Below, piece by piece: positions 1 to 53,449 of a stretch of 64,000 nucleotides of DNA. The position numbers and the translations under genes are program-made. Under the pieces are notes generated by a model. That model ran no database searches and had not been told where the DNA came from. It saw nothing but the letters and a program-made list of their open reading frames with translations. The stretch is from the NCBI GenBank assembly GCA_036985855.1, contig BTQL01000004.1, positions 6,372 through 70,371 on the forward strand, given 5' to 3'. Source of the DNA: Acidimicrobiia bacterium. GTDB lineage: Bacteria > Actinomycetota > Acidimicrobiia > Spongiisociales > UBA5794. Within the stretch, counting starts at the first letter, position 1, and every line of letters begins with the position of its first letter.

Positions 1-1
1 C

Positions 2-418
2 ATGCGCTTCTCTGATGGCATGATGGAGTACGTCAAGGGTGGCTCCGACGAGTTTGCTACCGAGCGCCATGCACTCGGCCAGGCGCTCGAGCAGGCGCAA
101 AACCATGTGGGGGCCCTGGTCGAATACTCGATGAAATCGATGCAGAACCCAACAGATATCTACAAGACGGGTCTGCACGCGAATGCCTTGCTCGAGAGCC
201 TCTCTGAGGTCACGATTGCGTGGTTGCTGCTCGAGCACGCCGAGGTCGCCAACGTGGCTCTGGCCGATGCAACGGGTGACGATGTCGGCTTCTACGAAGG
301 CAAGATCGCCTCGGCGCGGTTCTTCGTCAACGACGCTCTCCCGAGGGTCGCCGTGCGTACTGCTGCGGCCCAGGCAGAAGATGGCTGGCTCATGGAGATG
401 TCCGATGCTGCCTTTTGA
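2..418 (+). CDS. Acyl-CoA dehydrogenase, C-terminal fragment (5' end lies outside the window)
   Basis: The ORF runs in from the window edge. Its C-terminal region resembles the C-terminal helical domain of the long acyl-CoA dehydrogenase at 26758..28530 (FYEGKIASARFF vs AAKVATARFYAV), so this is a paralogue. Confidence 0.55.
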   Translation: MRFSDGMMEYVKGGSDEFATERHALGQALEQAQNHVGALVEYSMKSMQNPTDIYKTGLHANALLESLSEVTIAWLLLEHAEVANVALADATGDDVGFYEGKIASARFFVNDALPRVAVRTAAAQAEDGWLMEMSDAAF

Positions 419-473
419 CATGTGTCGGGTGTGAACTCGCCTGGATCTGAGTGCGTCGAGCTACGCTGGTTTC

Positions 474-974
474 ATGACTGATCGATATGAATCCATCCTG
501 TCGTTGCGTGCTATCAGGCAGTTCGCGCAGCGATCGATCGAATCGACGGACGTCGATGCAGTCCTCGAAGCTGCCAGGTGGACGGGGTCGTCCAAGAACC
601 TGCAGAACTGGTCCTTCATCCTGGTTGACGATCCGCAACAAAAGGAGCGACTCTGTGACGCTGGCGATTTCATGGACCCAGTACGCAACGCACCGGCTGC
701 GATCTGTCTGGTGCAAGAGCCTGAGGGTTACGAGTTCGATACGGGTCGTCTAGCGCAGAACATTATGCTTGCTGCCGATGCGCTTGGTTTGGCTAGCTGT
801 CCCGTGACATTGCACCGCGACGAGATTGCGGCTTCGGTGCTCGAGCTACCTGCCGGTAGAAGGTGTAGGTACGCGATAGCGATCGGGTATCCGGCCCCTG
901 GTGCAGGTCCTGGGCGAATGGGTGGTCGAAAACCGCTCGGTGAGCTTGCGCATCACGACAGCTACGGCGGCTGA
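474..974 (+). CDS. Nitroreductase-family (NADH/FMN) oxidoreductase
   Basis: 166 aa. The 'LSLRAIRQF...VLEAARWTGSSKNLQNWSFILV' region is typical of the nitroreductase fold. Basis is remembered family signatures only. Confidence 0.65.
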   Translation: MTDRYESILSLRAIRQFAQRSIESTDVDAVLEAARWTGSSKNLQNWSFILVDDPQQKERLCDAGDFMDPVRNAPAAICLVQEPEGYEFDTGRLAQNIMLAADALGLASCPVTLHRDEIAASVLELPAGRRCRYAIAIGYPAPGAGPGRMGGRKPLGELAHHDSYGG

Positions 975-977
975 TCG

Positions 978-1232
978 ATGCTTCCGACGCTCATGTTTCT
1001 TGGTTTCGTCTTCGGATACATCTACGGCGTCACTCGGCGCGTGAACGTCACGATTGCGGGTGCCATCCTCGCAGTACTCGGTTTGTGGTTGCTGGTGTTC
1101 ACCGTCGGTGAGATCGACTTCACGATCGCGATATTCATCGTCACCGGGCTGTTGGCTGTCATCAACTATCTGGTTGGAGGACTCCTTGGTTGGGGCATCG
1201 AACGCCTCGTTCGTGTCTTCTTCCGGCGATGA
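978..1232 (+). CDS. Small hydrophobic membrane protein, function unknown
   Basis: 84 aa with two predicted TM helices. It starts 4 nt after the nitroreductase stop. Confidence 0.35.
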   Translation: MLPTLMFLGFVFGYIYGVTRRVNVTIAGAILAVLGLWLLVFTVGEIDFTIAIFIVTGLLAVINYLVGGLLGWGIERLVRVFFRR

Positions 1233-1253
1233 ACACCTCGTTGTCGTTCTGAT

Positions 1254-2555
1254 ATGGCGCAGATAGCGATATTCGACTCAGGGATCGGTGGCACCACGGT
1301 GCTCGACCGCGTACGTGAACACGCTCCCTGGTCCGACCTCATCTACATTGCTGACCACGCGTTCGGACCATACGGAGAGCGTACGCTCGATGAGGTCAGG
1401 GCCAGGACGAAGTTGCTTGCTCGATATCTCGAGTCTGTCGGTGTCAGGGAGATCGTGATCGCCTGCAACTCGGCATCCGCAGCGGCGTTGCACCATCTAA
1501 GGGAAGTGTTGCCAGACGTCGCATTCGTTGGCATGGAGCCGGCTGTCAAACCCGCATCTGAGCTGACACGCAGCGGCATCGTGGGCATACTCGCCACAGA
1601 GGCCACGTTCCAAGGAGAGCTGTTTCGTAGTCTCATCGGACGTCACGCATCTGACATCGTGGTTGTTGAACAGGCGTGTCCTGGCCTGGCCGCGGTCGTT
1701 GAACAGGGCGCACCTGCCGCGGCACTTCTCGATGAGTTCCTTTCTCCCGTTGTGGATGCGGGCGCAGACGTCATCGTGCTCGGCTGCACGCACTACCCGC
1801 TCATTCGATCCGATATCGAGCAGCGCCTACCGAAGGGGACGATTGTCGTCGATCCGTCCGACGCAGTCGCGAAGCGGGTCGTGGCTGTTGCTCACGACTG
1901 CGAAGTCGATCTCGAGGGGACGGCGTCGACGGTGTATTGGACTACAGGACTCGAAACGGAACGTGACGACGGACGACAGTGGATGACGATCGATATCCCG
2001 GGATCAGCGATGGCTGCGGTCAGGGTCCGCGAGACAACGCTGAGCGCCGTCCATGGCGATATCACGACGATGCCGGTTGATGCTGTGGTGAATGCCGCGA
2101 ACAATCATCTCGCGCATGGCGGAGGAATCGCTCTTGCGATCTCGCTGGCCGGCGGTCCGACGATCGATGCGGAATCAGCGGACTGGATCACAACCAATGG
2201 GCCGCTCGGTACTGGCTTGGCAGCCCTTACGTCGGCGGGCAACATGCCGTCGTCGTACGTAATCCATGTTGCCGGCCCTATCTACGCGACCGGCCAGGAG
2301 AACGAACAGCTGCTCGCCGCTGCCGTTAGGGCGGCGCTCGACACCGCGACCGAGATCGAGGCGACTTCCATCGCGGTTCCGGCGATCTCAGCCGGGATAT
2401 ATGGTTATCCACCGGATGAAGCGTCGGCCGTTATCGTCGAAGCCGTTGGCAAGTTCATCGCCGGTGCAGACACAACGTTGGCGTCGGTTCGTCTGGTCGG
2501 ATTCGAAACCGTCATGACCGAACGATTCGCTTCTGCGATATCCTCAGGCGCATGA
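1254..2555 (+). CDS. murI: Glutamate racemase fused to a C-terminal macro (ADP-ribose-binding/hydrolase) domain
   Basis: The N-terminal ~245 aa carry MurI motifs (IFDSGIGGTTV, ACNSASA, GCTHYP). The C-terminal ~185 aa carry macro-domain motifs (GDITTMPVDAVVNAANNHLAHGGGIALAI, SYVIHVAGP, SIAVPAISAGIYGYP). Both domains sit in one continuous frame. Confidence 0.85.
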   Translation: MAQIAIFDSGIGGTTVLDRVREHAPWSDLIYIADHAFGPYGERTLDEVRARTKLLARYLESVGVREIVIACNSASAAALHHLREVLPDVAFVGMEPAVKPASELTRSGIVGILATEATFQGELFRSLIGRHASDIVVVEQACPGLAAVVEQGAPAAALLDEFLSPVVDAGADVIVLGCTHYPLIRSDIEQRLPKGTIVVDPSDAVAKRVVAVAHDCEVDLEGTASTVYWTTGLETERDDGRQWMTIDIPGSAMAAVRVRETTLSAVHGDITTMPVDAVVNAANNHLAHGGGIALAISLAGGPTIDAESADWITTNGPLGTGLAALTSAGNMPSSYVIHVAGPIYATGQENEQLLAAAVRAALDTATEIEATSIAVPAISAGIYGYPPDEASAVIVEAVGKFIAGADTTLASVRLVGFETVMTERFASAISSGA

Positions 2556-3370
2556 CACGACCCACAGTTGGCATCCTCGGTGCGGGTTCCATGGGCGAGA
2601 TATTCGCCCACGGTCTCTTGCGTGCCGGCTGGGAGCCGCAAGACCTCGCCCTTGCCGTTCGAAGGCCTGAGCGCGTACGAGATCTCGAGCACAGCACGGG
2701 AGTCAACACGACCCTCTCTCTCGCTGAGGCGGCAGAGGGCAGGGATGTCCTCGTCATCTCGGTCAAACCGAAGGATGTGCATACTGTGCTCGGCGCGATC
2801 TCTGACCTCGTGACCACCGATCAAGTGGTCGTTTCGATCGTTGCGGGTGTTCCTGTGTCCGTATTCGAAGACGCGTTGCCAGGGCTTCCGATTGTACGAG
2901 CGATGCCCAACACGCCGTCGGCGGTTGACCTCGGAATGACTGCATACACCGTTGGAGAAGCGGCCAGCGTTGAGCATGTGGATCGAGCCGAAGTTGTCCT
3001 TGCAGCGGTCGGCGAGACGCTGCAGGTGTCTGAGGATCTGCTCGATGCGGTGACCGCGGTTTCAGGTACTGGACCTGCGTACGTCTTTCTGATGGCAGAG
3101 GCGCTGATCGAGGCAGCGATCAGGGAAGGACTGCCTCATCATGCAGCGGAGAAGATCGTGCATCAGACGGTTCGTGGTGCCGGTGAACTTCTTGCGGCAT
3201 CGGACAAGTCGGCATTCCGGCTCCGCGGCGAAGTGACTTCTCCCGGTGGCACTACGGCCGCGGCAATGCACATCCTCGAGGATGGCGGTTTCAGAGCTCT
3301 CGTGGAGAACGCCGTCCGAGCGGCAGCGGATCGATCGAGAGAACTGGGCGAGAAGGCGTCGGACAGATGA
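2552..3370 (+). CDS. proC: Pyrroline-5-carboxylate reductase
   Basis: N-terminal Rossmann motif (VGILGAGSMG) and the C-terminal P5CR dimerisation signature (SPGGTTAAAMHILEDGGF). Its start overlaps the murI stop by 4 nt. Confidence 0.9.
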   Translation: MTRPTVGILGAGSMGEIFAHGLLRAGWEPQDLALAVRRPERVRDLEHSTGVNTTLSLAEAAEGRDVLVISVKPKDVHTVLGAISDLVTTDQVVVSIVAGVPVSVFEDALPGLPIVRAMPNTPSAVDLGMTAYTVGEAASVEHVDRAEVVLAAVGETLQVSEDLLDAVTAVSGTGPAYVFLMAEALIEAAIREGLPHHAAEKIVHQTVRGAGELLAASDKSAFRLRGEVTSPGGTTAAAMHILEDGGFRALVENAVRAAADRSRELGEKASDR

Positions 3371-4272
3371 TTCGCTCAGCCGTACTGGCTGTGACTGAAC
3401 GATCGGTAACCAGAAGGATGATCACCGATACCTCGGCCGGTCGGGCCGTGGCGAAGCGATTCGTCGCAGGCGACACCCTTGCATCCGCGATCGAGGTAGC
3501 CAAGCAACTCAACACCAAGGGAATGCGTGTGTCCCTTGACCATCTCGGTGAGCACGTTGCTGAGATAGAGGAAGCGATAGCGGCCAGGGATTCCTATCTC
3601 GCATGCCTCAGCCAGATCTCGGAGCACAACCTCGACGCGAATATCTCGATCAAGCTCACTCAGCTCGGTATGGGACTCGACAACGATGCGGCGGCTCACC
3701 ACCTCGACGAGATCGCGTCTGCAGCTCTCGTGGCCGGAACGACGGTGACGGTCGACATGGAGGAGTCTGAGCACACCCGGACGACAGTGGACCTATACGC
3801 CACTGCACAACATACGCACGGGAATCTGGGAATCGCCGTCCAGTCGTATCTCAGACGCACCGCACATGATCTTGACAGCATCATCCCGCTCGGTGGTCAT
3901 ATCCGCCTCTGCAAGGGTGCATACGCTGAGCCGTCAGAAGTCGCCTACCAGTCCCGCGATGAGGTCGATGCCTCCTTCGACCGTCTTGGAGCCCTGCTCA
4001 TGGAGTCACCGGGCGTGGAACCTGCGATTGCGAGCCACGATGACGCTCGGCTCGAGAAGATCCTTGCCGCGGCAGAGCATCGGGATGAGCGATGGGAGTT
4101 TCAGATGCTCTATGGCGTACGGAGAGATCGTCAGGCCGAGTTGGTGGCCATGGGACACCAGATGCGCGTGTACGTGCCGTACGGAGAGGCGTGGTACCCG
4201 TACCTGACGCGTCGGATGGCCGAACGTCCCGCGAATCTGTTCTTCTTCATGCGGGCGCTGCTCGGGAAATAA
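3367..4272 (+). CDS. Proline dehydrogenase (monofunctional PRODH, PutA-like catalytic domain)
   Basis: The C-terminal 'YVPYGEAWYPYLTRRMAERPANLFFFMRALL' signature is typical of bacterial PRODH. There is a 4-nt overlap with proC. Confidence 0.85.
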   Translation: MIRSAVLAVTERSVTRRMITDTSAGRAVAKRFVAGDTLASAIEVAKQLNTKGMRVSLDHLGEHVAEIEEAIAARDSYLACLSQISEHNLDANISIKLTQLGMGLDNDAAAHHLDEIASAALVAGTTVTVDMEESEHTRTTVDLYATAQHTHGNLGIAVQSYLRRTAHDLDSIIPLGGHIRLCKGAYAEPSEVAYQSRDEVDASFDRLGALLMESPGVEPAIASHDDARLEKILAAAEHRDERWEFQMLYGVRRDRQAELVAMGHQMRVYVPYGEAWYPYLTRRMAERPANLFFFMRALLGK

Positions 4273-4278
4273 ACATCT

Positions 4279-4312
4279 GCATATATGAGCGTATGGTCAT
4301 ATAATAGAGCAG
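4279..4312 (+). promoter_or_regulatory. arsR promoter with a consensus -10 box (TATAAT) 7 nt before the ATG, overlapped by an imperfect inverted repeat (CATATATGA-n8-TCATATAAT)
   Basis: The perfect TATAAT lies at about 4300..4305 and the arsR ATG at 4313, so the mRNA would be leaderless. The inverted repeat is a candidate ArsR/SmtB operator. Confidence 0.45.
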
Positions 4313-4666
4313 ATGGGAACACCGCAACATCAGCACTCCCCGCCGGTCTCTGGCGATCGCCTGCTTGATGAAGCCTCAGCTTCCGATCTCGCTGAGCGTT
4401 TCAAGCTGCTGTCCGACCCACACCGCCTACGAATCATCTACGCGCTTGTTGAGGGTGGAGAGATGTGTGTCGGCGCGATCGCAGCGTTGGTTGGTTCCTC
4501 CGAATCGGCCACGAGTCATCAGCTCCGTAACTTGCGATTGGCCGGGTTCGTGCGGTCCAGACGGCATGGACGCGAGGTCTTCTACTCGGTCGCGGACTCG
4601 CACATTCGCGTTCTTCTCGACGTAGCCGTCGAGCACTACTTGCACGGCCACGAGGATCGCCCGTGA
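4313..4666 (+). CDS. ArsR/SmtB-family metalloregulator
   Basis: Helix-turn-helix with the 'HRLRIIYAL...ELCVGAIAALVGSSESATSHQLRNLRLAGFV' motif. The stop overlaps the downstream CDF transporter start. Confidence 0.85.
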   Translation: MGTPQHQHSPPVSGDRLLDEASASDLAERFKLLSDPHRLRIIYALVEGGEMCVGAIAALVGSSESATSHQLRNLRLAGFVRSRRHGREVFYSVADSHIRVLLDVAVEHYLHGHEDRP

Positions 4667-5565
4667 GCAGTGGTTACGATCACGGAAGCTCTGCAAGCGT
4701 TCGGTACACGAAACCGCTTGCGATTGCATTCGGGCTCGTAGCAAGTTTCGCGATCGTGGAGTTCATAGCCGGTATATCGAGCGGCTCGCTTGCACTTACC
4801 GCCGACGCCGGCCACATGGCGACTGATGCGATTGGCCTTGGTATGGCTCTTGCCGCTGCGGTGGTTTCGAAGCGGGTGAAGCCGAGCTCTACCCAAACAT
4901 ATGGTCTGTATCGCGTTGAGATTCTTGCAGCCCTGGCCAACGCAGTTCTTCTCGCCGGCGTGGCGACCTATGTGATCGTCGTGGCGATCATCAGGCTTCG
5001 CGAGCCGGTTGAAGTTCAAACGGCGCTCATGCTCGTTGTCGCGGTGGGTGGTCTGCTCGTCAATCTCGTCAGCTTCCGCCTTCTCAGGCAGGGTGCCGAC
5101 GAGTCCCTCAACGTCGAAGGAGCGTTCCTCGAGGTACTCGGGGACCTTCTCGCGTCTGTGGGTGTGATCGTCGCCGGTGCGGTGATCCTGATAACCGGCT
5201 GGTATGTGGTCGATGCGATTGTCGGAATTGCGATAGGCCTCTTCATTCTGCCAAGGGCGCTCTCCCTTGGGCGGCGTGCGATACGGATCCTCATGGAGGT
5301 CGCCCCTGAAGGAATCGACGTGGAGTCGATGCGAGAAAAGCTGCTTGCGTTGCCCGACGTGGTTGAGGTGCACGATCTGCACGTGTGGACACTGACATCT
5401 GAAATGCACACAGCGACGGCCCATCTTGTCATCAGCGACGGAGTCGATGGCCATCCCACACTTGATGCTGCTCGCGCTGCACTCTCGACGGAATTCGGCA
5501 TCGACCACGCGACCCTCCAGATCGAACCGGAGTCTCACACTGGTTGCCACGAGGTGGCCTGGTAG
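4663..5565 (+). CDS. Cation-diffusion-facilitator (CzcD-like) metal efflux transporter
   Basis: 300 aa with six TM helices, a CDF C-terminal cytoplasmic domain and His-rich N- and C-termini. It is coupled to arsR. Confidence 0.85.
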   Translation: MSSGYDHGSSASVRYTKPLAIAFGLVASFAIVEFIAGISSGSLALTADAGHMATDAIGLGMALAAAVVSKRVKPSSTQTYGLYRVEILAALANAVLLAGVATYVIVVAIIRLREPVEVQTALMLVVAVGGLLVNLVSFRLLRQGADESLNVEGAFLEVLGDLLASVGVIVAGAVILITGWYVVDAIVGIAIGLFILPRALSLGRRAIRILMEVAPEGIDVESMREKLLALPDVVEVHDLHVWTLTSEMHTATAHLVISDGVDGHPTLDAARAALSTEFGIDHATLQIEPESHTGCHEVAW

Positions 5566-5619
5566 TCGTTCCCGTCATGCCCAGAACTCGTCGACCAGGT
5601 TCCTCTCGTTCGGTTTGTC

Positions 5620-7845
5620 ATGTCGAGCGAGGGCCCACCAGCGCTCCGCCGTTTACAATCGGTCGAGACCCGCGGAGGAGACCAGGTGACGGCAACGGAT
5701 ACGAAGACCGACGACGTGGCTGCCAGAACGTTCGCTGTATCGAAGATCCTGGCAGTGTTCGCCGTTCTCTCCGTTGCCGGCACCCTGGCGCTGTGGTGGC
5801 TTGGCACTCTCCCGGCGGAGCCGTACTTCGAGGTCGGTAGGGAGGTCTTTGGGAACATACCTGCTCTCGTCGTGGCAGTGTTCTACATCCTGGTCGCAGC
5901 GTTCCTCGGCATCTCGATCGGCCTGTTCGCGATGCGAGCCAGGAACTGGGAGCGCGGTAGCTGGGAGCAGCGCTCTGGCGACTTCAAGAGGCGACTGCAC
6001 CGGTTCCGCGAAGGTGTTTCGATGAAGACCGTCATGGAGGACCCGGCGGCCGGAATCATGCACTCACTGATGTACTACGGGTTCATCGTCCTGTTCATCG
6101 GAACGGTCATCCTCGAGATCGACCACGTGGCACCCGTGTCCCTCAAGTTCCTGCAAGGCGCGTTGTATCAGTGGTACTCGCTCATTCTCGACCTCGCCGC
6201 CCTCTCGTTCCTCACCGGTGTGGCGTGGGCAGCGGTACGACGATACGGTGTCAAGCCGTGGCGCATACGAACCAAGACGCGGCCCGAAGATGCGTGGATC
6301 CTCATCATGCTTGCAACGATCGGTGTGTCCGGCCTACTTACCGAGGCCGCCCGGATCGCCTGGATCGGAAGACCTACGTTCGAGCAGTGGTCGTTCGTCG
6401 GATTCCCGCTTTCGAGCCTGATATCGACTACTTCCGCCGGCGGCATCCATCAGATCCTGTGGATCACCCACGCGGTGGCATTCCTCGTGTTTCTCGTGAT
6501 GTTGCCGACCACGAAGCTGCGTCACATGGTCACCACTCCCGCGAACCTTGCGCTGCAGCCACGAGAACGGCCAAAGGGTGCAATGCGCGAGATGCCGAAC
6601 CTCATGGAAGCAACAGACATCGAGACCGTTGGCGCCTCCACCGTCGCCGAATTCACGTGGAAACAGCTACTCGACACGGACGCATGCACGATCTGTGGCA
6701 GATGCACCTCTGTGTGTCCGGCCAACCAGACCGGGAAGCTGCTCGATCCACGCGAGATCGTGCTCAAGCTCGGAACGGTCGCTGCTCTGTCTGGGGAGCC
6801 AGCGATCTCTCCGCCGGTCGGAATCGACCCTGCGATCACCGTCACCTCAGACAACGTGTTCGAGCTCATAACCGCGGAGGAACTTTGGTCATGCACGACA
6901 TGTAGGGCCTGTGACGAGGCATGTCCGGCCGGCATCGAGATCGTCGACAAGATCCTCGACATGCGCCGGTACCTCTCACTCATGGAGGCTGACTTCCCTT
7001 CGGAACTCGGCAAGGTGTACGTGTCGATGGAGAACTCGTCGAATCCATACGGCATGGACCAGAGCACGAGAGGCAATTGGACGGACCAACTTGATTTCGA
7101 GGTGAAACGGCTCGGTGAACCGGGTGTCACCGCTGAGTACCTGATGTGGGTCGGGTGCGCGGGCAGCTTCGACGACCGGAACCGCGCCACCACGCTTGCA
7201 ACGGCGCGCCTCCTGCACAAGGCAGATGTCGACTTCGCCATTCTCGGTCCCAAGGAGCTCTGTAATGGCGACCCAGCGAGGCGCACAGGGAACGAATACG
7301 TGTTCCAGGGTCTTGCTCTGGCGAATATCGAGACGCTCAACGACCTCGGTATCGACAAGATCATCACGCAGTGCCCTCACTGCTTCAACACACTTGGAAA
7401 CGAGTACCCGCAGTTCGGCGGCGACTATTCGGTCATTCACCACTCAGAACTCCTGAGCCAACTTGTCGAGGACGGTCGCCTCACTCCAAGATCGACAGGG
7501 GAATCCATCGTGTTCCATGACCCCTGCTACCTCGGCAGACACAATGACACCTTCCTTGCGCCCCGAACGATCGTGGATGCCGCAGGGATCAGGGTGGAGA
7601 TGCCTCGCAATGGCACAAACTCATTCTGTTGCGGCGCAGGCGGTGGGAAGTTCTGGTTCGAGGAGCGCAGTGGCACGAAGATCAACATCGATAGGACACA
7701 GGAGGCCCTTGCCACGGAGGCAGACATCATTGCCACCGGATGTCCCTTCTGTTACGTCATGCTGGACGACGGTGTCAAAGAGATCGGCGCACATGAGACG
7801 GTGGTCGTCGAGGACATCGCCATGCTGCTCGACAAGCGCACCTAG
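5620..7845 (+). CDS. Membrane-bound heterodisulfide-reductase-like Fe-S oxidoreductase (NarI-like TM domain + 2x[4Fe-4S] + 2xCCG domains; Rv0338c-like)
   Basis: N-terminal multi-TM region, then the ferredoxin motifs CTICGRCTSVCP and CTTCRACDEACP, then two cysteine-rich CCG domains (CPHCFNT; CCGAGGG..GCPFC). Confidence 0.8.
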   Translation: MSSEGPPALRRLQSVETRGGDQVTATDTKTDDVAARTFAVSKILAVFAVLSVAGTLALWWLGTLPAEPYFEVGREVFGNIPALVVAVFYILVAAFLGISIGLFAMRARNWERGSWEQRSGDFKRRLHRFREGVSMKTVMEDPAAGIMHSLMYYGFIVLFIGTVILEIDHVAPVSLKFLQGALYQWYSLILDLAALSFLTGVAWAAVRRYGVKPWRIRTKTRPEDAWILIMLATIGVSGLLTEAARIAWIGRPTFEQWSFVGFPLSSLISTTSAGGIHQILWITHAVAFLVFLVMLPTTKLRHMVTTPANLALQPRERPKGAMREMPNLMEATDIETVGASTVAEFTWKQLLDTDACTICGRCTSVCPANQTGKLLDPREIVLKLGTVAALSGEPAISPPVGIDPAITVTSDNVFELITAEELWSCTTCRACDEACPAGIEIVDKILDMRRYLSLMEADFPSELGKVYVSMENSSNPYGMDQSTRGNWTDQLDFEVKRLGEPGVTAEYLMWVGCAGSFDDRNRATTLATARLLHKADVDFAILGPKELCNGDPARRTGNEYVFQGLALANIETLNDLGIDKIITQCPHCFNTLGNEYPQFGGDYSVIHHSELLSQLVEDGRLTPRSTGESIVFHDPCYLGRHNDTFLAPRTIVDAAGIRVEMPRNGTNSFCCGAGGGKFWFEERSGTKINIDRTQEALATEADIIATGCPFCYVMLDDGVKEIGAHETVVVEDIAMLLDKRT

Positions 7846-8079
7846 GAGGGCCCACCATCGGGTCTGTAGAGGTCATCCTCCTGATCCTGGAGGGGATCAT
7901 GACGGCCCGATCCTCGCTGAACGATTCGGATTCCCCGGACTCATCGGCCTCATCTTCCCTGGCATTTTCGCTGCGGGCACCCTGAGCCTGGTCGAAGAGG
8001 TTGAAACCATCGTCTCTGAGGAATGCAACGATGTGACCGCCTGATGGCTGGGAGCCGGGGCCCGTTAGGGTCTGCTCCT

Positions 8080-8904
8080 ATGAAGATCGGATATCAGGGA
8101 GAGCCGCACAGTTATAGCTATCGCGCAGCGACCGAGCTGTTTCCCGACGACGAGTATGTCGGCCATCGAGGTTTCGCGGCCGCCTTCGATGCGCTCGAAG
8201 GCGGTGATGTCAACCGGCTCGTAGTGCCCGTTGAGAACTCGACGACGGGCTCAGTGCTTCCGGTCCTCGATCGTCTCCCCGGTGACGCAAGCCATGTTCG
8301 ATTCTCGATCCTTGCCGAACATCTCGTCGAGGTACGCCACACGCTGCACGGAATTCCCGGCGCCTCCATCGATGACGTGCGTGAGGTGCGTTCGCATCCT
8401 CAGGCCCTTGCGCAAGCGGAGCAGGTCCTCCTCGACCTCGGTGTCGAGCCGGTGCCGACGTACGACACAGCGGGAGCTGTGCGCCAGGTCGCCGAAGAAG
8501 GCGACCCATCGGTCGCTGCTCTTGCTCCGCCGCGCGCGGGCGCGGCTTATGGCCTCGAGGTTCTTCTTGAACACGTGCTCGACAAGGACCACAACACGAC
8601 GCGTTTCGTGGTTCTCGCGGTCGGGGATCCGGTGGTCAACGAGAATGATGACAAGACAACGATCGTCGTGACCGGTTCGCATACACCTGGATCTCTCGCC
8701 CTCGTGCTGACCGAACTTGGACTCCGTGGTGCGAACCTCACTCGTATCGAATCACGACCCTCCGGAGTTGCGTGGAACTACCGGTTCTTCATCGATCTCG
8801 TGCACGCTCCCGGACCTGCCGGTCTGGCACACGTCCTCGATCCTCCACCAGCGAATGCGGCTGAGGTTCTGAACCTTGGGTCATACAAGGCGGAGGTCAA
8901 GTAG
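8080..8904 (+). CDS. pheA: Prephenate dehydratase
   Basis: PDT catalytic domain (KIGYQGEPHSYSY...VENSTTGSV) plus a C-terminal ACT domain (ESRPS). The track ORF begins at 8023; MKIGY at 8080 is the more plausible start. Confidence 0.85.
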   Translation: MKIGYQGEPHSYSYRAATELFPDDEYVGHRGFAAAFDALEGGDVNRLVVPVENSTTGSVLPVLDRLPGDASHVRFSILAEHLVEVRHTLHGIPGASIDDVREVRSHPQALAQAEQVLLDLGVEPVPTYDTAGAVRQVAEEGDPSVAALAPPRAGAAYGLEVLLEHVLDKDHNTTRFVVLAVGDPVVNENDDKTTIVVTGSHTPGSLALVLTELGLRGANLTRIESRPSGVAWNYRFFIDLVHAPGPAGLAHVLDPPPANAAEVLNLGSYKAEVK

Positions 8905-8954
8905 GTCGGTCGTCGTCAGTAGTTGACTGCTACCGTTGCGTCTCAGGAGGCAAC

Positions 8955-9833
8955 GTGGCGACGAGCACGGCCAGTTTCGGTACCGGCAAGCGTGAAGGGC
9001 ACGATTCGTCCGGCTATTACGGCCGGCGGATGCATGCAGCCGGTCGCGATCGCGAGGTCGGCGAACTGGTCGATCCTCCCGCATCTGTGGTTGATCACCT
9101 GTTCCACGGGTCATCCGAGTCGATGCACCAGATTCCGGACAACTGCGTGGCGCTGATGGTGACTTCACCTCCGTACAACGTCGGCAAGGACTATGACGAG
9201 GACCTGGACATCGACGAGTACCTTCAGCTCCTCAACGGGGTGTTCACTGAAACGTTCCGGGTGCTTGAACCCGGCGGGCGGGTTGCCGTGAACGTTGCGA
9301 ACCTCGGCCGGAAGCCATACATCCCACTCAATCAGTACGTGTCGGCGCTTCTGACAGAGATCGGATTCGATCTGCGGGGCGAGATCATCTGGCAGAAGGC
9401 GAAATCTGCTGGAGGGTCATGTGCGTGGGGATCGTGGCAGTCCGCAAAGAACCCGACCCTGCGCGACATCCACGAATACGTCATCGTTGCTTCGAAAGGT
9501 TCGTACGCGCGGGTCAGGAGAGGTGAGGACACGATCTCAAAGGACGAGTTTCTCGACGCCACAGTTTCGATCTGGAACATTCTCCCGGAATCTGCACGGA
9601 GAGTTGGTCATCCGGCCCCGTTCCCCGTCGAACTTCCACGCAGGCTGATCGAGCTGTACACCTTTGAAGCTGACCTGGTGCTTGATCCCTTCCTCGGTTC
9701 GGGAACGACAGCCGTCGCGGCCGTGGAGTCCAGGAGGCACTACGTCGGTTATGAGCTCGATGCCGGATACATCGACATTGCCGAACGCAGGATCCACGAA
9801 GGGCGAACGGGGACTCGCTCGGTCCATCTCTGA
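8955..9833 (+). CDS. Beta-class DNA methyltransferase (N4-cytosine or N6-adenine), solitary
   Basis: Motif IV SPPY (MVTSPPYNVGKDY) precedes motif I (DPFLGSGTT), which is the beta-class order. No restriction endonuclease gene is adjacent. The true start is probably internal (MHAAG.. or MHQIP..). Confidence 0.8.
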   Translation: MATSTASFGTGKREGHDSSGYYGRRMHAAGRDREVGELVDPPASVVDHLFHGSSESMHQIPDNCVALMVTSPPYNVGKDYDEDLDIDEYLQLLNGVFTETFRVLEPGGRVAVNVANLGRKPYIPLNQYVSALLTEIGFDLRGEIIWQKAKSAGGSCAWGSWQSAKNPTLRDIHEYVIVASKGSYARVRRGEDTISKDEFLDATVSIWNILPESARRVGHPAPFPVELPRRLIELYTFEADLVLDPFLGSGTTAVAAVESRRHYVGYELDAGYIDIAERRIHEGRTGTRSVHL

Positions 9834-9834
9834 C

Positions 9835-10476
9835 ATGGCCCCGATCGAACGCGCCCTGTTGCGGACGGTGCCATGGCTGCTCGGCGGTCTCGTCCTGTCG
9901 ATACCCCTCCTCCTCGTGGACGTGGCAGGCGATCCGCTCGTCACTTTCACAGTGCAGCTCACCGTGCTCGTTGGATTCGGCTTGGTTCTCTCCCACGTCC
10001 TGGTGCGGCTTGGCACGGCTGAGTGGTTCATCGGAGTCTCGTGGAGCACTTTCGTGAGGCTGATCTCGAGTGGCATCGGGTTGGTCGTACTCGTGACGGG
10101 GACGGTTGGCCTCGTGACCCTCGCCTCCTCCGCTGCCCTCCGGTACGATCCGTCCGCACAGTTCCTGCAGCTGATCTCAGCTCTTGACATCGCGTGGGTA
10201 GGGGCAGCGATCACGATTGGGGCCTACCGCGCGTGGGGTCGAGCTTGGGCGGTGGTCGGCGGAGCGGCGGTAGGCGTTGTCTGCATTTGGTCGATCTGGA
10301 ACTATCTCGACCATGTTGGATTTGGTCAGAACGGTGAGTGGATCGTGTCGGCGCCGGACCTCACGCGCTTCGTGCTTCCGTATGACACGGTCGCTGCTGT
10401 CGCGGCCGTTTCGGTGTTCCTGATCGGTGTGCGCGCGAGAGCTCAGGCCACAGAGCAGCCAAGCCCCCAGTCGTAG
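9835..10476 (+). CDS. Integral membrane protein, function unknown
   Basis: About 6 TM helices. Its ATG overlaps the methyltransferase stop (TGACATGG). The track ORF is extended upstream to 9664. Confidence 0.45.
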   Translation: MAPIERALLRTVPWLLGGLVLSIPLLLVDVAGDPLVTFTVQLTVLVGFGLVLSHVLVRLGTAEWFIGVSWSTFVRLISSGIGLVVLVTGTVGLVTLASSAALRYDPSAQFLQLISALDIAWVGAAITIGAYRAWGRAWAVVGGAAVGVVCIWSIWNYLDHVGFGQNGEWIVSAPDLTRFVLPYDTVAAVAAVSVFLIGVRARAQATEQPSPQS

Positions 10477-12815: not shown

Positions 12816-13748
12816 GTGGGCGTGGACATTCTGAGAATCGTCGCTGGCCTCGTTGTCCTCATTCTCGCTGCCGATCGTCTCGTTCTCTCCGCCGTGCGCA
12901 TCGCCAAGGTCTACAACGTGTCTGTCGTCGTCATAGGCGCGGTGATTGTCGGGTTCGGAACGTCTGTGCCCGAGTTCGTGGTATCGGCAATCGCAGCGTC
13001 GGATGGGCGGACCGGGCTAGCCATGAGCAACGTGGTCGCCTCGAATACGGTCAACGTGACCCTCGTGCTCGGCGCATCGGCGCTGGTCGCGATGTTGGTG
13101 ACCAAACAAACCGTGGTGAGACGCGAAGGCCTCTTGATGCTTGGATCTGTCGTTGCGCTTGCAGCTGTTCTGGCGGATGGGTACGTCGGGGTTGGCGAGG
13201 GTCTTCTGCTGGCGACAGGAATGCTGGTGGCGATCTGGCTGCTCGTATTGTGGGCGAAGAACGGAACCGACAACTCTGGAGATGACCTCACCGACATCGT
13301 CGCGGATCCTGACAGGGTATGGATCGAGATTATCTACGGCATCGTGGCTCTTGTGGCGACCGTCGTCGCCGGCCAGCAATTGCTCGTTGGTGTCGTCTCC
13401 ATCGGGGAGACGATGGGCCTCTCCGTCGTGTTCATGGGCTTGATAACGGGTGTCGGCACAAGCCTTCCCGAGCTATCGGCTGCCCTTGCGGGAGCCAGAC
13501 GAGGTGCATCGGATCTTGTACTCGGCAACGTCCTCGGTTCCAACGTCTTCAATTCGCTCGGTGTGGCCGGGCTAGCGGCGATCATCGGTCCAGGCGTGGT
13601 TGATGGAGTACCAACGGTGCTGCTCGGATTGATGCTCCTGGCTGCTGTTTTCGCCGGTGTATTTGCGTATACATCCCAGCGAATCAACCGAATTGAAGGA
13701 TCCATCCTCATCGGTACATTCCTCATCTACGCGTACCTTTCGCTGTGA
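12816..13748 (+). CDS. CaCA-family Ca2+/Na+ (cation) antiporter
   Basis: Two internally repeated alpha-repeat regions (GTSVPEF.. / GTSLPEL..), the YrbG/NCX-type signature. It is divergent from nhaA. Confidence 0.85.
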   Translation: MGVDILRIVAGLVVLILAADRLVLSAVRIAKVYNVSVVVIGAVIVGFGTSVPEFVVSAIAASDGRTGLAMSNVVASNTVNVTLVLGASALVAMLVTKQTVVRREGLLMLGSVVALAAVLADGYVGVGEGLLLATGMLVAIWLLVLWAKNGTDNSGDDLTDIVADPDRVWIEIIYGIVALVATVVAGQQLLVGVVSIGETMGLSVVFMGLITGVGTSLPELSAALAGARRGASDLVLGNVLGSNVFNSLGVAGLAAIIGPGVVDGVPTVLLGLMLLAAVFAGVFAYTSQRINRIEGSILIGTFLIYAYLSL

Positions 13749-15490
13749 CGCCGTCAAACGAATCCGTGGTCGCGGCTCTTCGCCTGCTCGTTGCATACAC
13801 GAAGCTCGAAGATGGCCAGAGTCAATCGTTTCGAACTCGCGCGTATGAGAAGGCAATCGACGCCATCGCAGCAACATCGGAGCCCGTCGGGGAGATGTCT
13901 GTATCCGAGCTGACCAAGATCGATGGTGTCGGTGACAGTACGGCCCGCAAGATCGTGGAGTTCGCATCGAACGGGAGCATCGCCAAGGTAGAGCGGCTCA
14001 AGAAGCAGTTCCCTCCGACAATGCTCGACCTCATGCGCATTCCGGGCCTCGGCCCCAAGACCGTGCTTCTCCTCCAGAACAGCCTGGGGGTCGTGGACGT
14101 CCCTGCCCTCACCGAGGCGATCGAGAGACAACAGCTTCGGACGCTCCCTGGACTGGGGCCGAAGTCTGAAGCGAAGATCGCGCAGGCGATATCGCTCCTT
14201 GGCATCCACTCGGACGAGACCAGAACACCGATTGCTGAAGCCATGGATATCGCACGACGAGTCGTCGCGGAGCTCAAGGACGTCGAGGGTGTGCATACGG
14301 TGGACTACGCGGGCAGTCTGCGCAGGCTGACAGAAACCATCGGTGACGTCGATATCCTCGTCACAGCCGGAGCCGAATCGCCCGTGGTGGAACGATTTCT
14401 GGCGCTCCCTGGTGTTACAGCGGTCCTCGGATCTGGCTCGACGAAGGCTTCGGTGGTGATCGATGACCGAATGCAGGTCGATCTTCGCGTCGTACCCGAA
14501 GCTGCCTTCGGTGCTGCCCTTCTGTACTTCACCGGTTCGAAGGCCCATAACATCGCGTTGCGCCAACGTGCGCTCAACAGGGGTCTCACCCTCAATGAAT
14601 ATTCGCTCTCTGAGGTCGGAAGCGCAGCCGTGGTGGCCGCGTCGACCGAGGCCGATATCTACCACAGACTCGACCTTGCCTGGATCACTCCCGAGCTGAG
14701 GGAAGACACAGGCGAGATAGCTGCTGCTGATTCCGGTTCGCTTCCCATGCCGATAGCGGTTGGCGACCTGCGCGGTGATCTCCATGTTCACACTGACTGG
14801 TCCGGTGACGGTCGAAGCACCATCTCAGAGATGCTTGACACCGCCGTCTCGCGAGGTCTCGAATACGTCTCCATAACCGATCACGCAGAGAACCTCGCCA
14901 TGAACGGTCTTTCAAGGAAGCGCATGCTCGAGCAGCGCGCGGTGATCGAAGAGATGCGAGCGCACTATCCGGGCCTGACGATCCTGCACGGGGCGGAGTT
15001 GAATATCGGTGCAGATGGTTCAATCGACTATGACAGCGAGTTCCTTGCACGGTTCGATTTCGGTGTTGCGTCGATCCATTCTCACTTCGATCTCTCGCCG
15101 CAAGACCAGACAGATCGTCTGATCGCGGCGATACGTAATCCTGCCGTCAACGTGATCGGTCATCCAAGTGGTCGAATGATCGGCCGGAGACCAGGGGTCC
15201 CCTTCGATGGCGATGCGGTCTTCGAAGCGGCGGCTGGTTCAGGTACCGCGCTGGAGATCAACAGCCATCTCCACCGCCTCGACCTGCAAGCGTCTCACCT
15301 ACGTCGGGCCGTTGAGACCTCGGAAGTGATGTTCGCGATATCGACCGATGCGCACCACGCGTCGGCATACAGCAACGTGAAATGGGGTGCGGCCCTGGCC
15401 CGAAAGGGATGGGTTCCTCTGGGAAGGGTTGTCAACGCGCTCGAAACACAGACCTTTCTCGATTGGGTTGACAGAAAGCGGAACTCATGA
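13745..15490 (+). CDS. polX: Family X DNA polymerase with C-terminal PHP phosphoesterase domain (PolX)
   Basis: HhH motifs (LPGLGPKT), a Pol-beta-like nucleotidyltransferase core, and a PHP domain (HVHTDWSGDG...ITDH). The start is GTG and overlaps the upstream stop. Confidence 0.85.
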   Translation: MTPSNESVVAALRLLVAYTKLEDGQSQSFRTRAYEKAIDAIAATSEPVGEMSVSELTKIDGVGDSTARKIVEFASNGSIAKVERLKKQFPPTMLDLMRIPGLGPKTVLLLQNSLGVVDVPALTEAIERQQLRTLPGLGPKSEAKIAQAISLLGIHSDETRTPIAEAMDIARRVVAELKDVEGVHTVDYAGSLRRLTETIGDVDILVTAGAESPVVERFLALPGVTAVLGSGSTKASVVIDDRMQVDLRVVPEAAFGAALLYFTGSKAHNIALRQRALNRGLTLNEYSLSEVGSAAVVAASTEADIYHRLDLAWITPELREDTGEIAAADSGSLPMPIAVGDLRGDLHVHTDWSGDGRSTISEMLDTAVSRGLEYVSITDHAENLAMNGLSRKRMLEQRAVIEEMRAHYPGLTILHGAELNIGADGSIDYDSEFLARFDFGVASIHSHFDLSPQDQTDRLIAAIRNPAVNVIGHPSGRMIGRRPGVPFDGDAVFEAAAGSGTALEINSHLHRLDLQASHLRRAVETSEVMFAISTDAHHASAYSNVKWGAALARKGWVPLGRVVNALETQTFLDWVDRKRNS

Positions 15491-44600: not shown

Positions 44601-45129
44601 ATGACCGCATGGCGCGGCGGGCACCGTTGATGGCTGCCTTGACAGAGAGGAGGTCGAACTGCGTCTCGATGATGAGCAGGTCTACTCCTCCGTCGATGAG
44701 GCCTGCGGACTCGATCTCGTATTGGCCGCGCAGGTCCGCGTACGCGATTTGGCCGAGAGTCGGAAGCTTCGTCCCAGGGCCGATGGAACCTGCGACGAAT
44801 CGGTCGTCGAATTCGTCTGCGACATGCCTCGCGATCGTGGCACCAGCGGCAGCGAGCTCGTACGCCCTGTCGGCGAGGTCATATTCGCCGAGCGGTACCC
44901 CGAAGGCACCGAAGGTGTTCGTCTCGATGACATCTGAGCCGACGTCCAGGTAGGCGCGGTGCAGGGACTCGATCACGTCAGGACGGGTGATGTTGAGGAT
45001 CTCGTTGCAGCCTTCGAGGTCGGGACCACCGAAATCCTCGTCGGTGAGGTCCTGTGCTTGGAGCCATGTACCTGTTGCGCCGTCGAAGACGACAACACGC
45101 TGTGAAAGGGTGTCGATGTAGTCGGTCAT
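41674..45129 (-). CDS. metH: Cobalamin-dependent methionine synthase
   Basis: 1151 aa with Hcy-binding, pterin-binding, B12-binding (DxHxxG...) and AdoMet activation domains, all collinear. Confidence 0.95.
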   Translation of the reverse strand: MTDYIDTLSQRVVVFDGATGTWLQAQDLTDEDFGGPDLEGCNEILNITRPDVIESLHRAYLDVGSDVIETNTFGAFGVPLGEYDLADRAYELAAAGATIARHVADEFDDRFVAGSIGPGTKLPTLGQIAYADLRGQYEIESAGLIDGGVDLLIIETQFDLLSVKAAINGARRAMRSSGRDVPLQTQVTIELTGRMLPGTEIGAALAAIEALGTDVIGINCATGPVEMYEPIRVLSRHATVPISVIPNAGLPSVVNGEMHYDVGASDVAKHLTTFVEEYGVSVVGGCCGTTPEYIATLIDAVGHRAPAERNPSAIPAVTSTYSAVSLHQDTSFLIIGERTNANGSKAFREAMLDGDIDACVGIAENQVAEGGHLVDLCVDYVGRNGAADITPIAQRFSTDVAAPVVIDSTEPEVMQAALEQLGGRCVLNSANLESGDETGSRLDRVLTLAKEHGAAVICLLIDERGQARDVEWKMEVAHRLYGIATERYGLRAEDLIFDPLTFPLSTGDDDLRRDGMETIQAIKRIKSELPGVSTVLGVSNISFGLRPAARRVLNSVFLYECLEAGLDAAIIHAGKITPLSAIEEEHLKACTDLVYDRRAEGYDPLEVLLEAFETVTDAEKAKDPFEGLTLIERLEKRIVAGNAIGLEDDLDKALEETTALSIINDVLLAGMKTVGELFGAGEMQLPFVLRSAQTMKTSVRYLEPHLDHVDTADRGSIVIATVSGDVHDIGKNLVDIILTNNGYRVHNLGIKVSITEMIEALEKHEADAIGMSGLLVKSTLVMRDNLDELSRRGHDDVPVLLGGAALTRSYVEDDLARRHPGPVIYGKDAFAGLDAMEWIAGRRDEPKSPRRELPKIDRKETDHGVAPDRSPEVSADKPIPDPPFYGSRIVKGIELDEIAGYLNTTALLRNQWHYRPEHGETDAQFKERLAPELRRAITAARAEDLLQPQVVYGYFPVNGHGNELIVWADQTRTQELVRFRFPRQPGPPWLCIADYFRPVDADLTDVAAFHIVTMGTAVSQRTAQLFSEDRYEEYLKLHGLGVEMTEALAEYWHARVREELGIANEDDPTIRGLFRQRYRGGRYSWGYPACPDLEDNLTVADLLGADRVGIHVGPETGFQYQPEQTTSAIICHHPQAKYFIARKPRELRDAQ

Positions 45130-53391: not shown

Positions 53392-53449
53392 AGGTTTCCT
53401 TCTCTCGGTCTCGTGCCACGCATCCGGGCGGTATATCCACAGACTTGTC

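What the first reader, a model, noticed from the sequence alone, without database searches (positions are those of the whole stretch)
1254..4272. Glutamate racemase fused to a macro domain, translationally coupled to proC and proline dehydrogenase
MurI is normally a stand-alone protein of about 270 aa. Here it carries a complete C-terminal macro domain with all three signature blocks in the same reading frame. The next two genes overlap by 4 nt each and encode P5C reductase and proline dehydrogenase. This places an ADP-ribose-binding or de-ADP-ribosylating module on a peptidoglycan D-Glu enzyme inside a glutamate/P5C/proline operon. MurI moonlights as a DNA-gyrase inhibitor in some bacteria, and macro domains reverse protein or DNA ADP-ribosylation, so the fusion could mark ADP-ribosylation-based regulation of cell-wall precursor supply. 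I do not recall this architecture being characterised.
Basis: partly seen in the sequence, partly recalled or inferred. Interest (0 to 1): 0.7.

Follow-up and report, generated by a model that had tools for sequence, protein, structure and literature searches.

The report
Glutamate racemase fused to a macrodomain
In one lineage of uncultured Acidimicrobiia, the cell-wall enzyme glutamate racemase has fused with the ADP-ribose-binding macrodomain gene that has long sat next to it; the fusion is real, conserved and unstudied, but nothing yet shows that the two halves work together.

Summary
ORF 1254..2555 encodes a 433-aa protein with a complete MurI glutamate racemase (TIGR00067 above its cutoff, both catalytic Cys) and a complete macrodomain (PF01661, 116 bits). 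proC and a proline dehydrogenase gene follow, each with a 4-nt ATGA overlap.

It is not an assembly error. An independent assembly gives the identical protein, and more than 120 protein clusters (62-100% identity) share the architecture.

The fusion is a derived state. Related Acidimicrobiia carry the same syntenic block (acyl-CoA dehydrogenase, nitroreductase, murI, macro, proC, proDH) with murI and macro as separate genes that abut or overlap. MurI and macro trees agree, and split forms branch basally, implying about three independent fusions. One relative (L014) later lost the macro part.

The link to proC is not conserved: opposite-strand genes are inserted in some genomes, and the context differs entirely in others. 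No ADP-ribosyltransferase or sirtuin lies in the 64-kb window.

The macrodomain resembles PARP14-MD1, Af1521 and coronavirus Mac1. It keeps every ADP-ribose-binding motif but lacks the MacroD Asp/His.

Most likely this is a bifunctional fusion of two co-translated neighbours. Regulation of D-Glu supply by ADP-ribosylation remains speculative. No literature on the architecture was found.

The parts
1254..2555 (+). murI-macro fusion gene (433 aa plus stop)
   Evidence: ORF. PF01177 and PF01661 both match, and TIGR00067 is above its cutoff. A 100% identical protein, P0001, occurs in NCBI and in an independent Logan assembly.
1254..1997 (+). MurI (glutamate racemase) module, aa 1-248. Catalytic Cys71 is at nt 1464-1466 and Cys178 at nt 1785-1787.
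   Evidence: TIGR00067 covers aa 4-217 and NF002035 covers aa 3-244. The stand-alone MurI proteins P0123 (249 aa) and L014 (245 aa) end at this position. The fold matches MurI structures at TMt 0.74-0.84.
1944..2027 (+). Remodelled inter-domain linker (aa 231-258), overlapping the end of the MurI module. W243 and D247 are near-invariant, and there are no indels within clade A. The usual MurI C-terminal helix is replaced.
   Evidence: Conservation. The linker alignment shows a 6-aa deletion relative to clades B and C. AlphaFold models beta strands at 226-230, 243-245 and 252-258 with pLDDT above 80 and overall pTM 0.88.
2028..2552 (+). Macrodomain module (aa 259-433), of the PARP14-MD1 / Af1521 / coronavirus Mac1 type
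   Evidence: PF01661, 116 bits. The best PDB sequence matches are PARP14 macro 1 and YmdB. TMt is 0.88-0.94 to 3q6z, 5l9k and 1spv. The ADP-ribose motifs are invariant.
2552..3370 (+). proC (pyrroline-5-carboxylate reductase). Its ATG overlaps the fusion's TGA (ATGA).
   Evidence: TIGR00112 255.8 bits, above the 196.75 cutoff; also PF14748 and PF03807.
3367..4272 (+). Monofunctional proline dehydrogenase, with an ATGA overlap onto proC
   Evidence: PF01619, 117 bits. NF045947 (ProDh_Thermus) scores 259 bits, below its 500 cutoff. The gene is adjacent to proC in every related locus that has proC.
474..974 (+). Nitroreductase-family gene, a conserved upstream member of the syntenic block (context only)
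   Evidence: PF00881. It lies upstream of murI in L001, L002, L005-L009, L012-L014, L054, L086 and L089.
978..1232 (+). 84-aa predicted membrane protein between the nitroreductase gene and murI (context only; no family match)
   Evidence: ORF. No Pfam or PADLOC hit. It is called as a gene in the independent assembly.

Best explanation
The 433-aa protein is a lineage-specific fusion of two genes that were already long-standing, translationally coupled neighbours in this group of Acidimicrobiia. One is murI. The other is a small (about 175 aa) macrodomain gene. The ancestral arrangement was murI, then a stop/start overlap (ATGA) or a 4-nt spacer, then macro. Loss of the stop or a frameshift there joined the two genes. 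This appears to have happened about three times independently. In the window's clade the linker was then remodelled: the MurI C-terminal helix was lost and replaced by a Trp-containing beta linker.

The product is most likely bifunctional. The N-terminal half is an ordinary cofactor-independent glutamate racemase that supplies D-Glu for peptidoglycan (inferred from profile, motifs and fold). The C-terminal half binds ADP-ribose and most probably hydrolyses ADP-ribosyl esters, such as mono-ADP-ribosylated Glu/Asp, O-acetyl-ADP-ribose or ADP-ribose-1''-phosphate. That is inferred from similarity to PARP14 MD1, Af1521 and Mac1.

The fusion guarantees 1:1 co-expression and co-localisation. The racemase does not need it. 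The proC and proDH genes downstream are syntenic neighbours that happen to be translationally coupled in this genome; they are not an obligatory functional unit with the fusion.
For: Both domains score above curated cutoffs, and their catalytic or binding motifs are invariant. Both folds are confirmed.

Split forms exist in the same synteny:
- L054: GGAGGA-TGA-actg-ATG.
- L015: in-frame TGA.
- L086: 4-nt spacer.
- L089: ATGA overlap.

The stand-alone macro ORFs of L054 and L015 score 128 and 126 bits on PF01661. More than 120 clusters of stand-alone orthologous macro proteins exist at 57-80% identity.

The MurI and macro NJ trees are congruent, and split forms are basal to each fused clade. 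The macro-less L014 keeps the clade-specific remodelled linker, which points to secondary loss.

Other MurI relatives are fused to unrelated domains: Sua5/YciO/YrdC, DUF3090, an AlkD-like domain and peptidase C26.

The fusion-proC junction varies between genomes. The window contains no ADP-ribosyltransferase or sirtuin and the fusion matches no defence model.

The closest solved relative, PARP14 MD1, hydrolyses Glu-linked ADP-ribose (PMC10499325).
Against: Several observations hint at more than neutral co-expression. The same pair fused repeatedly. The adjacency has persisted down to about 45-50% identity. Macro conservation (60-66%) equals that of MurI. The structured, conserved linker with pTM 0.88 suggests a fixed inter-domain geometry.

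No activity was measured. Whether the fused gene is the only murI in these genomes was not tested. The trees are NJ trees without support values.
Confidence: 0.62

Rival explanations
1. Functional coupling. The macrodomain is a regulatory or protective module for MurI. It might sense ADP-ribose or O-acetyl-ADP-ribose (NAD+ turnover) and allosterically tune D-Glu production. Or it might remove ADP-ribose from MurI or an associated partner. In the split state the two proteins would form a complex.
For: The murI-macro adjacency or fusion is conserved across three clades down to about 45-50% identity, with co-diverging trees. There were about three independent fusions. The clade-A linker is conserved, indel-free and structured, and pTM is 0.88. 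The ADP-ribose pocket residues are invariant.
Against: L014 lost the macrodomain and kept MurI. The whole surrounding block, including clearly unrelated genes, is equally syntenic, so adjacency alone is weak evidence. Closely related stand-alone macros also sit away from murI (L087, L088). No writer enzyme lies nearby. MurI fuses readily with unrelated domains.
Confidence: 0.22
2. The macro half is a non-catalytic reader or a purely structural appendage. It would bind ADP-ribose or a related nucleotide without hydrolysing it, for example for localisation or oligomerisation.
For: The canonical MacroD/YmdB catalytic Asp and His are replaced: GGGVDGAIH in YmdB reads GGGIALAIS here. No NCBIfam macro equivalog reaches its cutoff.
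Against: The same substitutions occur in Af1521, PARP14 MD1 and coronavirus Mac1 (substitution pattern partly, partly my recollection of the Af1521 and Mac1 sequences). PARP14 MD1 and Mac1 are shown to be active hydrolases in PMC10499325; the Af1521 PDB entries are named ADP-ribose glycohydrolase / ADP-ribosylglutamate hydrolase. The NAAN asparagine, the GGG loop and the SAGIYG loop are all invariant.
Confidence: 0.1
3. DNA or gyrase link. MurI moonlights as a gyrase inhibitor, and the macrodomain reverses ADP-ribosylation of DNA or RNA, in the manner of DarG.
For: PARP14 MD1, the closest solved relative, removes ADP-ribose from the phosphate ends of ssDNA and ssRNA (PMC10499325). MurI inhibition of gyrase is known in mycobacteria (from my own knowledge; not tested here).
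Against: There is no PADLOC match of any kind (DarG is the model I was looking for) and no DarT-like neighbour. Nothing in the sequence addresses gyrase binding.
Confidence: 0.04
4. Assembly or annotation artefact: a frameshift or missed stop codon joined two genes.
For: Two-gene versions do exist in relatives.
Against: An identical protein occurs in an independent assembly of another run. More than 120 fused clusters come from many samples, with an indel-free conserved linker. The reading frame is continuous in the window.
Confidence: 0.01

Closest known systems
Glutamate racemase MurI/RacE (TIGR00067; for example M. tuberculosis 5hj7, B. anthracis RacE1 2dwu)
   Same: aa 1-248 cover the MurI fold: two-Cys mechanism motifs, a profile score above the equivalog cutoff, and TMt about 0.8.
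   Different: It carries a 175-aa C-terminal macrodomain. In the window's clade the usual C-terminal helix is replaced by a beta linker. It lacks the N-terminal extension of the E. coli type (the residue numbering fits this; that the extension marks the UDP-MurNAc-Ala-activated type is my recollection).
Macrodomains of the PARP14-MD1 / PARP9-MD1 / coronavirus Mac1 / Af1521 group
   Same: PARP14 MD1 is the best PDB sequence match (3vfq/3q6z, E=2.6e-35). The motifs GDxT, NAAN, HGGG-[VI]-A and SAG-[IV]-[YF]-G are shared, and TMt is about 0.9. These relatives hydrolyse Glu/Asp-linked mono-ADP-ribose.
   Different: It is bacterial and fused to a metabolic enzyme rather than to a PARP or a viral polyprotein. 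No cognate transferase has been identified.
E. coli YmdB / Oceanobacillus MacroD (canonical MacroD-type O-acetyl-ADP-ribose deacetylases)
   Same: About 35% identity (structural alignments), same fold, same ADP-ribose pocket.
   Different: The catalytic Asp and His of GGGVDGAIH are Ala293 and Ser297 here. NCBIfam equivalog cutoffs are not reached (144 bits against 200).
Stand-alone murI plus macro gene pairs in related Acidimicrobiia (L054, L015, L086, L089)
   Same: Orthologous genes in the same syntenic block (nitroreductase, murI, macro, proC, proDH).
   Different: There they are two polypeptides with a stop/start overlap or a 4-nt spacer. Here they form one polypeptide.
Other MurI fusions (MurI-Sua5/YciO/YrdC, MurI-DUF3090, MurI-AlkD-like, peptidase C26-MurI)
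   Same: MurI is joined to a second, unrelated domain in nearby lineages.
   Different: The partner domain differs. None is characterised, as far as I could find.

Membership tests
Glutamate racemase MurI (TIGR00067 / PF01177) | Profile score above the curated cutoff | tested here: met
   TIGR00067 159.2 bits against 146.65; PF01177 88.3 against 31.
Glutamate racemase MurI (TIGR00067 / PF01177) | Two catalytic cysteines in the ACN(S/T)AS and GCTHYP motifs, plus the N-terminal DSG(I/V)GG motif | tested here: met
   C71, C178 and D8-S9-G10 are present and invariant in the 24-sequence alignment and at least 98% conserved among 120 homologues.
Glutamate racemase MurI (TIGR00067 / PF01177) | Two-domain MurI fold | tested here: met
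   The AlphaFold model (pLDDT 89) matches 2dwu, 5hj7, 2jfo and others at TMt 0.74-0.84.
Glutamate racemase MurI (TIGR00067 / PF01177) | Racemase activity; role as the housekeeping (sole) D-Glu source | not testable with these tools
   This needs an enzyme assay or complementation, and a whole-genome scan for a second murI. Orthology with the stand-alone MurI at the same locus (L014, L086, L089) supports a housekeeping role.
Macro domain (PF01661), ADP-ribose binding | Profile above cutoff and a complete domain | tested here: met
   116 bits against 22, profile positions 1-117 of 118. TMt 0.88-0.94 to solved macrodomains.
Macro domain (PF01661), ADP-ribose binding | ADP-ribose pocket motifs: adenine-contacting Asp, NAAN, GGG loop, and the second loop SAG-x-[YF]-G | tested here: met
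   D269, N280-N283, G289-G291 and S379-G384 align with PARP14 MD1 and YmdB and are invariant.
Canonical MacroD / YmdB O-acetyl-ADP-ribose deacetylase | Catalytic Asp and His in GGGVDGAIH, and the equivalog profile cutoff | tested here: not met
   The sequence here is GGGIALAIS (Ala293, Ser297). The best NCBIfam macro model, NF001664, scores 144 bits against a 200 cutoff. It may still work like the Mac1/PARP14-MD1/Af1521 hydrolases, which lack these residues.
Mac1 / PARP14-MD1 / Af1521-like ADP-ribosylhydrolase | Hydrolysis of Glu/Asp-linked mono-ADP-ribose | not testable with these tools
   Only sequence and fold similarity were shown. The activity of the relatives comes from PMC10499325.
DarTG-type toxin-antitoxin / anti-phage defence macrodomain | Match to DarG or other defence models, and an adjacent DarT or other ADP-ribosyltransferase | tested here: not met
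   No PADLOC match. The neighbours are a nitroreductase gene, an 84-aa membrane protein gene, proC and proDH. No ART or sirtuin lies within 64 kb.
   The ATGA overlaps are present in the window. At the fusion-proC junction, relatives show 27-53 nt gaps (L001, L002), inserted opposite-strand genes (L005, L008, L089) or no proC/proDH within 6 kb downstream (L011; flank too short in L003, L015). Only the proC-proDH pair is consistently coupled.

The most novel reading that the evidence does not exclude
MurI and the macrodomain protein form a functional unit throughout this Acidimicrobiia lineage, as a complex when split and covalently when fused. In that unit, ADP-ribose, O-acetyl-ADP-ribose or protein ADP-ribosylation gates D-glutamate production. 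This would be the first link between ADP-ribosyl signalling and peptidoglycan precursor synthesis. The repeated independent fusions and the rigid remodelled linker would then be signatures of selection for that coupling.
Probability: 0.18. Interest if true: 0.65.

Novelty: new variant of a known kind. Interest (0 to 1): 0.36.

Why it matters
Bacterial macrodomains mostly lack known substrates. A macrodomain that has stayed next to an essential cell-wall enzyme, and has fused with it several times, gives a concrete and testable candidate for a physiological partner or pathway. Natural controls are available within one lineage: split forms, fused forms and a form that has lost the macrodomain. 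If the halves prove independent, the locus is still a clean example of how ATGA-overlapping neighbour genes repeatedly collapse into one ORF. It is also a caution against reading function into fusions and operon adjacency in compact, highly syntenic genomes.

Tried and rejected
- Assembly artefact: rejected. An identical protein occurs in an independent assembly, and more than 120 fused clusters exist.
- Fixed glutamate/proline operon: rejected by comparing loci.
- DarG-like or defence role: no PADLOC match.
- Nearby writer enzyme: Pfam scans of 48 called genes (of 51; three short ORFs were not scanned) across the 64-kb window found no ART, sirtuin, second murI or cell-wall gene.
- Promoter and terminator scan of 1-10000: nothing above shuffled expectation, so operon boundaries stay undefined.
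- Foldseek against AFDB, to find annotated proteins with the same architecture: the library was unavailable.
- Pfam on the ORFs downstream of murI in non-fusion relatives: uninformative. There was one Hsp70 and otherwise no hits, and the ORF choice was uncertain.
- Literature searches for glutamate racemase or MurI with macro domain, macrodomain, ADP-ribosylation or the Pfam accessions: nothing relevant.
- UDP-sugar-binding (UDP-MurNAc-Ala sensor) version of the macrodomain: considered and set aside, because the adenine-contacting Asp269 and all ADP-ribose motifs are invariant.
Full report
**1. The observation**

All are on the + strand, and each junction is a 4-nt ATGA overlap.

The 433-aa product matches two Pfam families:
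- PF01177 Asp_Glu_race, aa 19-208, 88 bits.
- PF01661 Macro, aa 279-393, 116 bits, covering the whole profile.

It passes the NCBIfam equivalog cutoff for glutamate racemase (TIGR00067, 159.2 bits against 146.65). It does not reach the cutoff of any macro equivalog; the best is NF001664, 144 bits against 200.

The next gene is a bona fide proC (TIGR00112, 255.8 bits against 196.75). The third is a monofunctional proline dehydrogenase (PF01619, 117 bits).

**2. The fusion is not an artefact**

The identical protein (P0001, "BMS9Abin12_0311 [Acidimicrobiia bacterium]") also occurs in an independent Logan assembly of run DRR500112, with the same neighbours. The 120 best homologue clusters (62-100% identity, 414-477 aa, many samples and sources) all carry both domains. 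Many of them are simply named "glutamate racemase".

In an alignment of these 120, several features are at least 98% conserved, and invariant in the 24-sequence alignment A1:
- both MurI cysteines (C71 in ACNSAS, C178 in GCTHYP);
- the DSGIGG motif;
- the macro motifs GD269xT, N280AAN283, H288GGG291 and S379AGxYGYP386.

The linker (aa 215-262) has essentially no indels, and W229, T231, W243 and D247 are nearly invariant.

**3. Structure**

AlphaFold on a 24-sequence alignment gives pLDDT 89 and pTM 0.88. The linker is modelled as beta strands (226-230, 243-245, 252-258) with pLDDT above 80.

Foldseek against the PDB matches the N-half to MurI structures (2dwu, 5hj7, 2jfo; TMt 0.74-0.84). It matches the C-half to macrodomains (3q6z PARP14 MD1, 5l9k OiMacroD, 1spv YmdB; TMt 0.88-0.94). 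No solved chain spans both halves.

By sequence, the closest solved macrodomain is PARP14 macro 1, followed by E. coli YmdB. The YmdB/MacroD catalytic Asp and His (GGGVDGAIH) read GGGIALAIS here. PARP14 MD1 aligns as YGGLAAALS, and as I recall the sequences, Af1521 and coronavirus Mac1 also lack this Asp and His. PARP14 MD1 and Mac1 are active hydrolases of Glu-linked mono-ADP-ribose and of ADP-ribosylated nucleic-acid ends (PMC10499325), and the Af1521 PDB entries are named as ADP-ribose hydrolases.

**4. How wide is the architecture?**

An exhaustive HMMER search of 1.84 billion 50%-identity representatives found only two full-length fusion representatives (P0121 at 60%, P0122 at 51%). The architecture is therefore confined to a narrow clade.

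Near MurI relatives carry other fusions:
- MurI-Sua5/YciO/YrdC (P0126, L018, L021);
- MurI-DUF3090 (P0137);
- MurI-AlkD-like (P0158);
- peptidase C26-MurI (P0179).

A stand-alone 249-aa MurI at 58% identity (P0123) ends exactly where the fusion's linker starts.

**5. Origin of the fusion**

A scan of species-representative genomes found the full fusion in about a dozen Acidimicrobiia-like MAGs (43-71% identity). I mapped the window's genes onto all loci and inspected the junctions. Three facts emerged.

(a) The window's clade A (L001, L002, L005-L009) shares a long syntenic block: acyl-CoA dehydrogenase, nitroreductase, murI-macro, proC, proDH, other genes, an HdrD-like gene, prephenate dehydratase and a methyltransferase.

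(b) L054 and L015 encode murI and macro as separate adjacent genes. L054 reads GGAGGA-TGA-actg-ATG, which gives the macro gene a Shine-Dalgarno-like sequence and a different frame. L015 has an in-frame TGA. The stand-alone macro ORFs score 128 and 126 bits on PF01661.

(c) L014 has the same block but a 245-aa MurI ending "...DGRFPWETAAI*", 47 nt before proC. It still carries the clade-A-specific remodelled linker: a 6-aa deletion of the MurI C-terminal helix and the DGRxxW motif. It therefore lost the macro part secondarily.

A search with the L054 stand-alone macro returned 760 hits. The top 120 are all 168-192-aa stand-alone proteins apart from one 98-aa fragment, at 57-80% identity (the fragment at 97%).
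- The two closest that I looked up, L086 (71%) and L089 (64%), sit in the same block as murI (257 or 248 aa), then macro (175 aa), then proC and proDH. The spacing is a 4-nt spacer in L086 and an ATGA overlap in L089.
- Two more distant ones, L087 and L088 (about 60%), are in unrelated contexts.

NJ trees of the MurI and macro parts are congruent. Split forms sit basal to each fused clade: L089 outside clade A; L086 and L054 beside L012 and L013; L015 beside L003 and L011.

The simplest reading is an ancestral, translationally coupled murI-macro pair that fused about three times. These trees have no support values, and fission cannot be formally excluded.

**6. The proline genes**

proC and proDH are always adjacent and usually overlap. 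The junction between the fusion (or the macro gene) and proC is variable:
- 27-53 nt gaps in L001 and L002;
- a 468- or 621-aa membrane-protein gene on the opposite strand in L008 and L005;
- another opposite-strand gene in L089;
- no proC or proDH within 6 kb downstream in L011, where HD-domain and flagellar-switch-like genes follow on the other strand; in L003 and L015 the downstream flank is too short to judge, though the upstream context also differs.

The "glutamate/P5C/proline operon" is thus a feature of local synteny, not a conserved functional unit. Consensus promoter and terminator scans gave nothing above shuffled expectation.

**7. Partners**

The rest of the window is ordinary chromosome. 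It encodes an Na+/H+ antiporter, PolX, penicillin amidase, ABC transporters, MetH behind a SAM riboswitch, a class II ribonucleotide reductase, methylmalonyl-CoA mutase and others. It contains no ADP-ribosyltransferase, sirtuin, second murI or peptidoglycan gene. The fusion matches no anti-phage defence model.

**8. Interpretation**

*Shown:*
- a real, conserved two-domain protein;
- both domains intact and under purifying selection at similar levels (MurI 58-75% and macro 60-66% identity within clade A);
- derivation from neighbouring genes;
- dispensability of the macro part for maintaining MurI (L014).

*Inferred:*
- racemase activity;
- ADP-ribose binding and hydrolysis.

Most likely (about 0.6) the protein is a bifunctional fusion whose halves act independently. 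The fusion would have been made easy by the stop/start overlap, and it is tolerated or mildly favoured because it fixes stoichiometry.

The regulatory alternative has a probability of about 0.2. In it, the macrodomain senses ADP-ribose or O-acetyl-ADP-ribose, or erases ADP-ribosylation on MurI or a partner. It is kept alive by the repeated fusions, the long-lived adjacency and the rigid remodelled linker. There is no direct support for it.

**9. Novelty and score**

I found no paper that mentions this architecture. Databases label the proteins "glutamate racemase" or "macro domain-containing protein". Both domains are well-known kinds, so the combination is a new, uncharacterised variant confined to one lineage of uncultured Acidimicrobiia.

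It offers a tidy natural experiment (split, fused and macro-lost forms) and a testable lead for a bacterial macrodomain substrate. On present evidence it is a moderately interesting gene fusion rather than a new system. Interest 0.36.

Noticed in passing
window 2552-4272; also L001, L002, L005-L010, L012-L014, L054, L086, L089: proC (P5C reductase) and a monofunctional proline dehydrogenase are always adjacent, and usually overlap by 1-4 nt, across this lineage. No P5C dehydrogenase lies beside them. The two enzymes catalyse opposite reactions, so together they could run a proline/P5C redox cycle. This is an unusual pairing for bacteria.
   Followed up: partly
L018 5995-7293, L021 6001-7305; proteins P0126, P0137, P0158, P0179: MurI in neighbouring lineages is fused to other domains: Sua5/YciO/YrdC (sister to one macro-fused clade), DUF3090, an AlkD-like DNA_alkylation domain, and an N-terminal peptidase C26 (gamma-glutamyl hydrolase-like). 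MurI seems unusually prone to fusion.
   Followed up: partly
L014 6001-6738 (QJWC01000009, Acidimicrobiia SZUA-258): A natural macro-less derivative of the fused gene. It keeps the remodelled linker stub (…DGRFPWETAAI*) and lacks the usual MurI C-terminal helix.
   Followed up: yes
window 45235-45317 (-), upstream of 41674-45129 (-): A SAM riboswitch (RF00162, 69.8 bits) lies directly upstream of a B12-dependent methionine synthase (MetH) gene.
   Followed up: no
window 8955-9833 (+): A Type II N6/N4 DNA methyltransferase (PADLOC MTase_II, 340 bits). It is syntenic in L002 and L009, and no restriction enzyme is obvious beside it, so it is probably a conserved orphan methyltransferase. The next 1.4 kb (9.8-11.3 kb) holds only a predicted membrane ORF and a long ORF on the minus strand that I did not scan.
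   Followed up: partly
window 5620-7845 (+): A 741-aa protein. Its homologues in L001 and L002 match Nitrate_red_gam, 4Fe-4S and CCG (HdrD-like) domains. It is conserved downstream of the block in most related loci.
   Followed up: no
window 57917-58804 (+): A Clp1-type P-loop protein (PF16575 CLP1_P, 84 bits), a family better known from eukaryotic and archaeal polynucleotide kinases.
   Followed up: no
L006 (CAXMSN010000037, labelled Kiloniellales), L010 (QQUL01000366, labelled Armatimonadetes), P0088 (labelled Proteobacteria): Contigs carrying the Acidimicrobiia-type fusion and its synteny are binned under unrelated phyla. These are probably mis-binned MAG contigs.
   Followed up: no
window 13745-15490 (+) and 50005-53463 (-): A PolX-family polymerase with a PHP domain, and a class II (B12-dependent) ribonucleotide reductase that also matches a TSCPD domain (PF12637, aa 928-1021). 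Both are ordinary, noted only as context.
   Followed up: no
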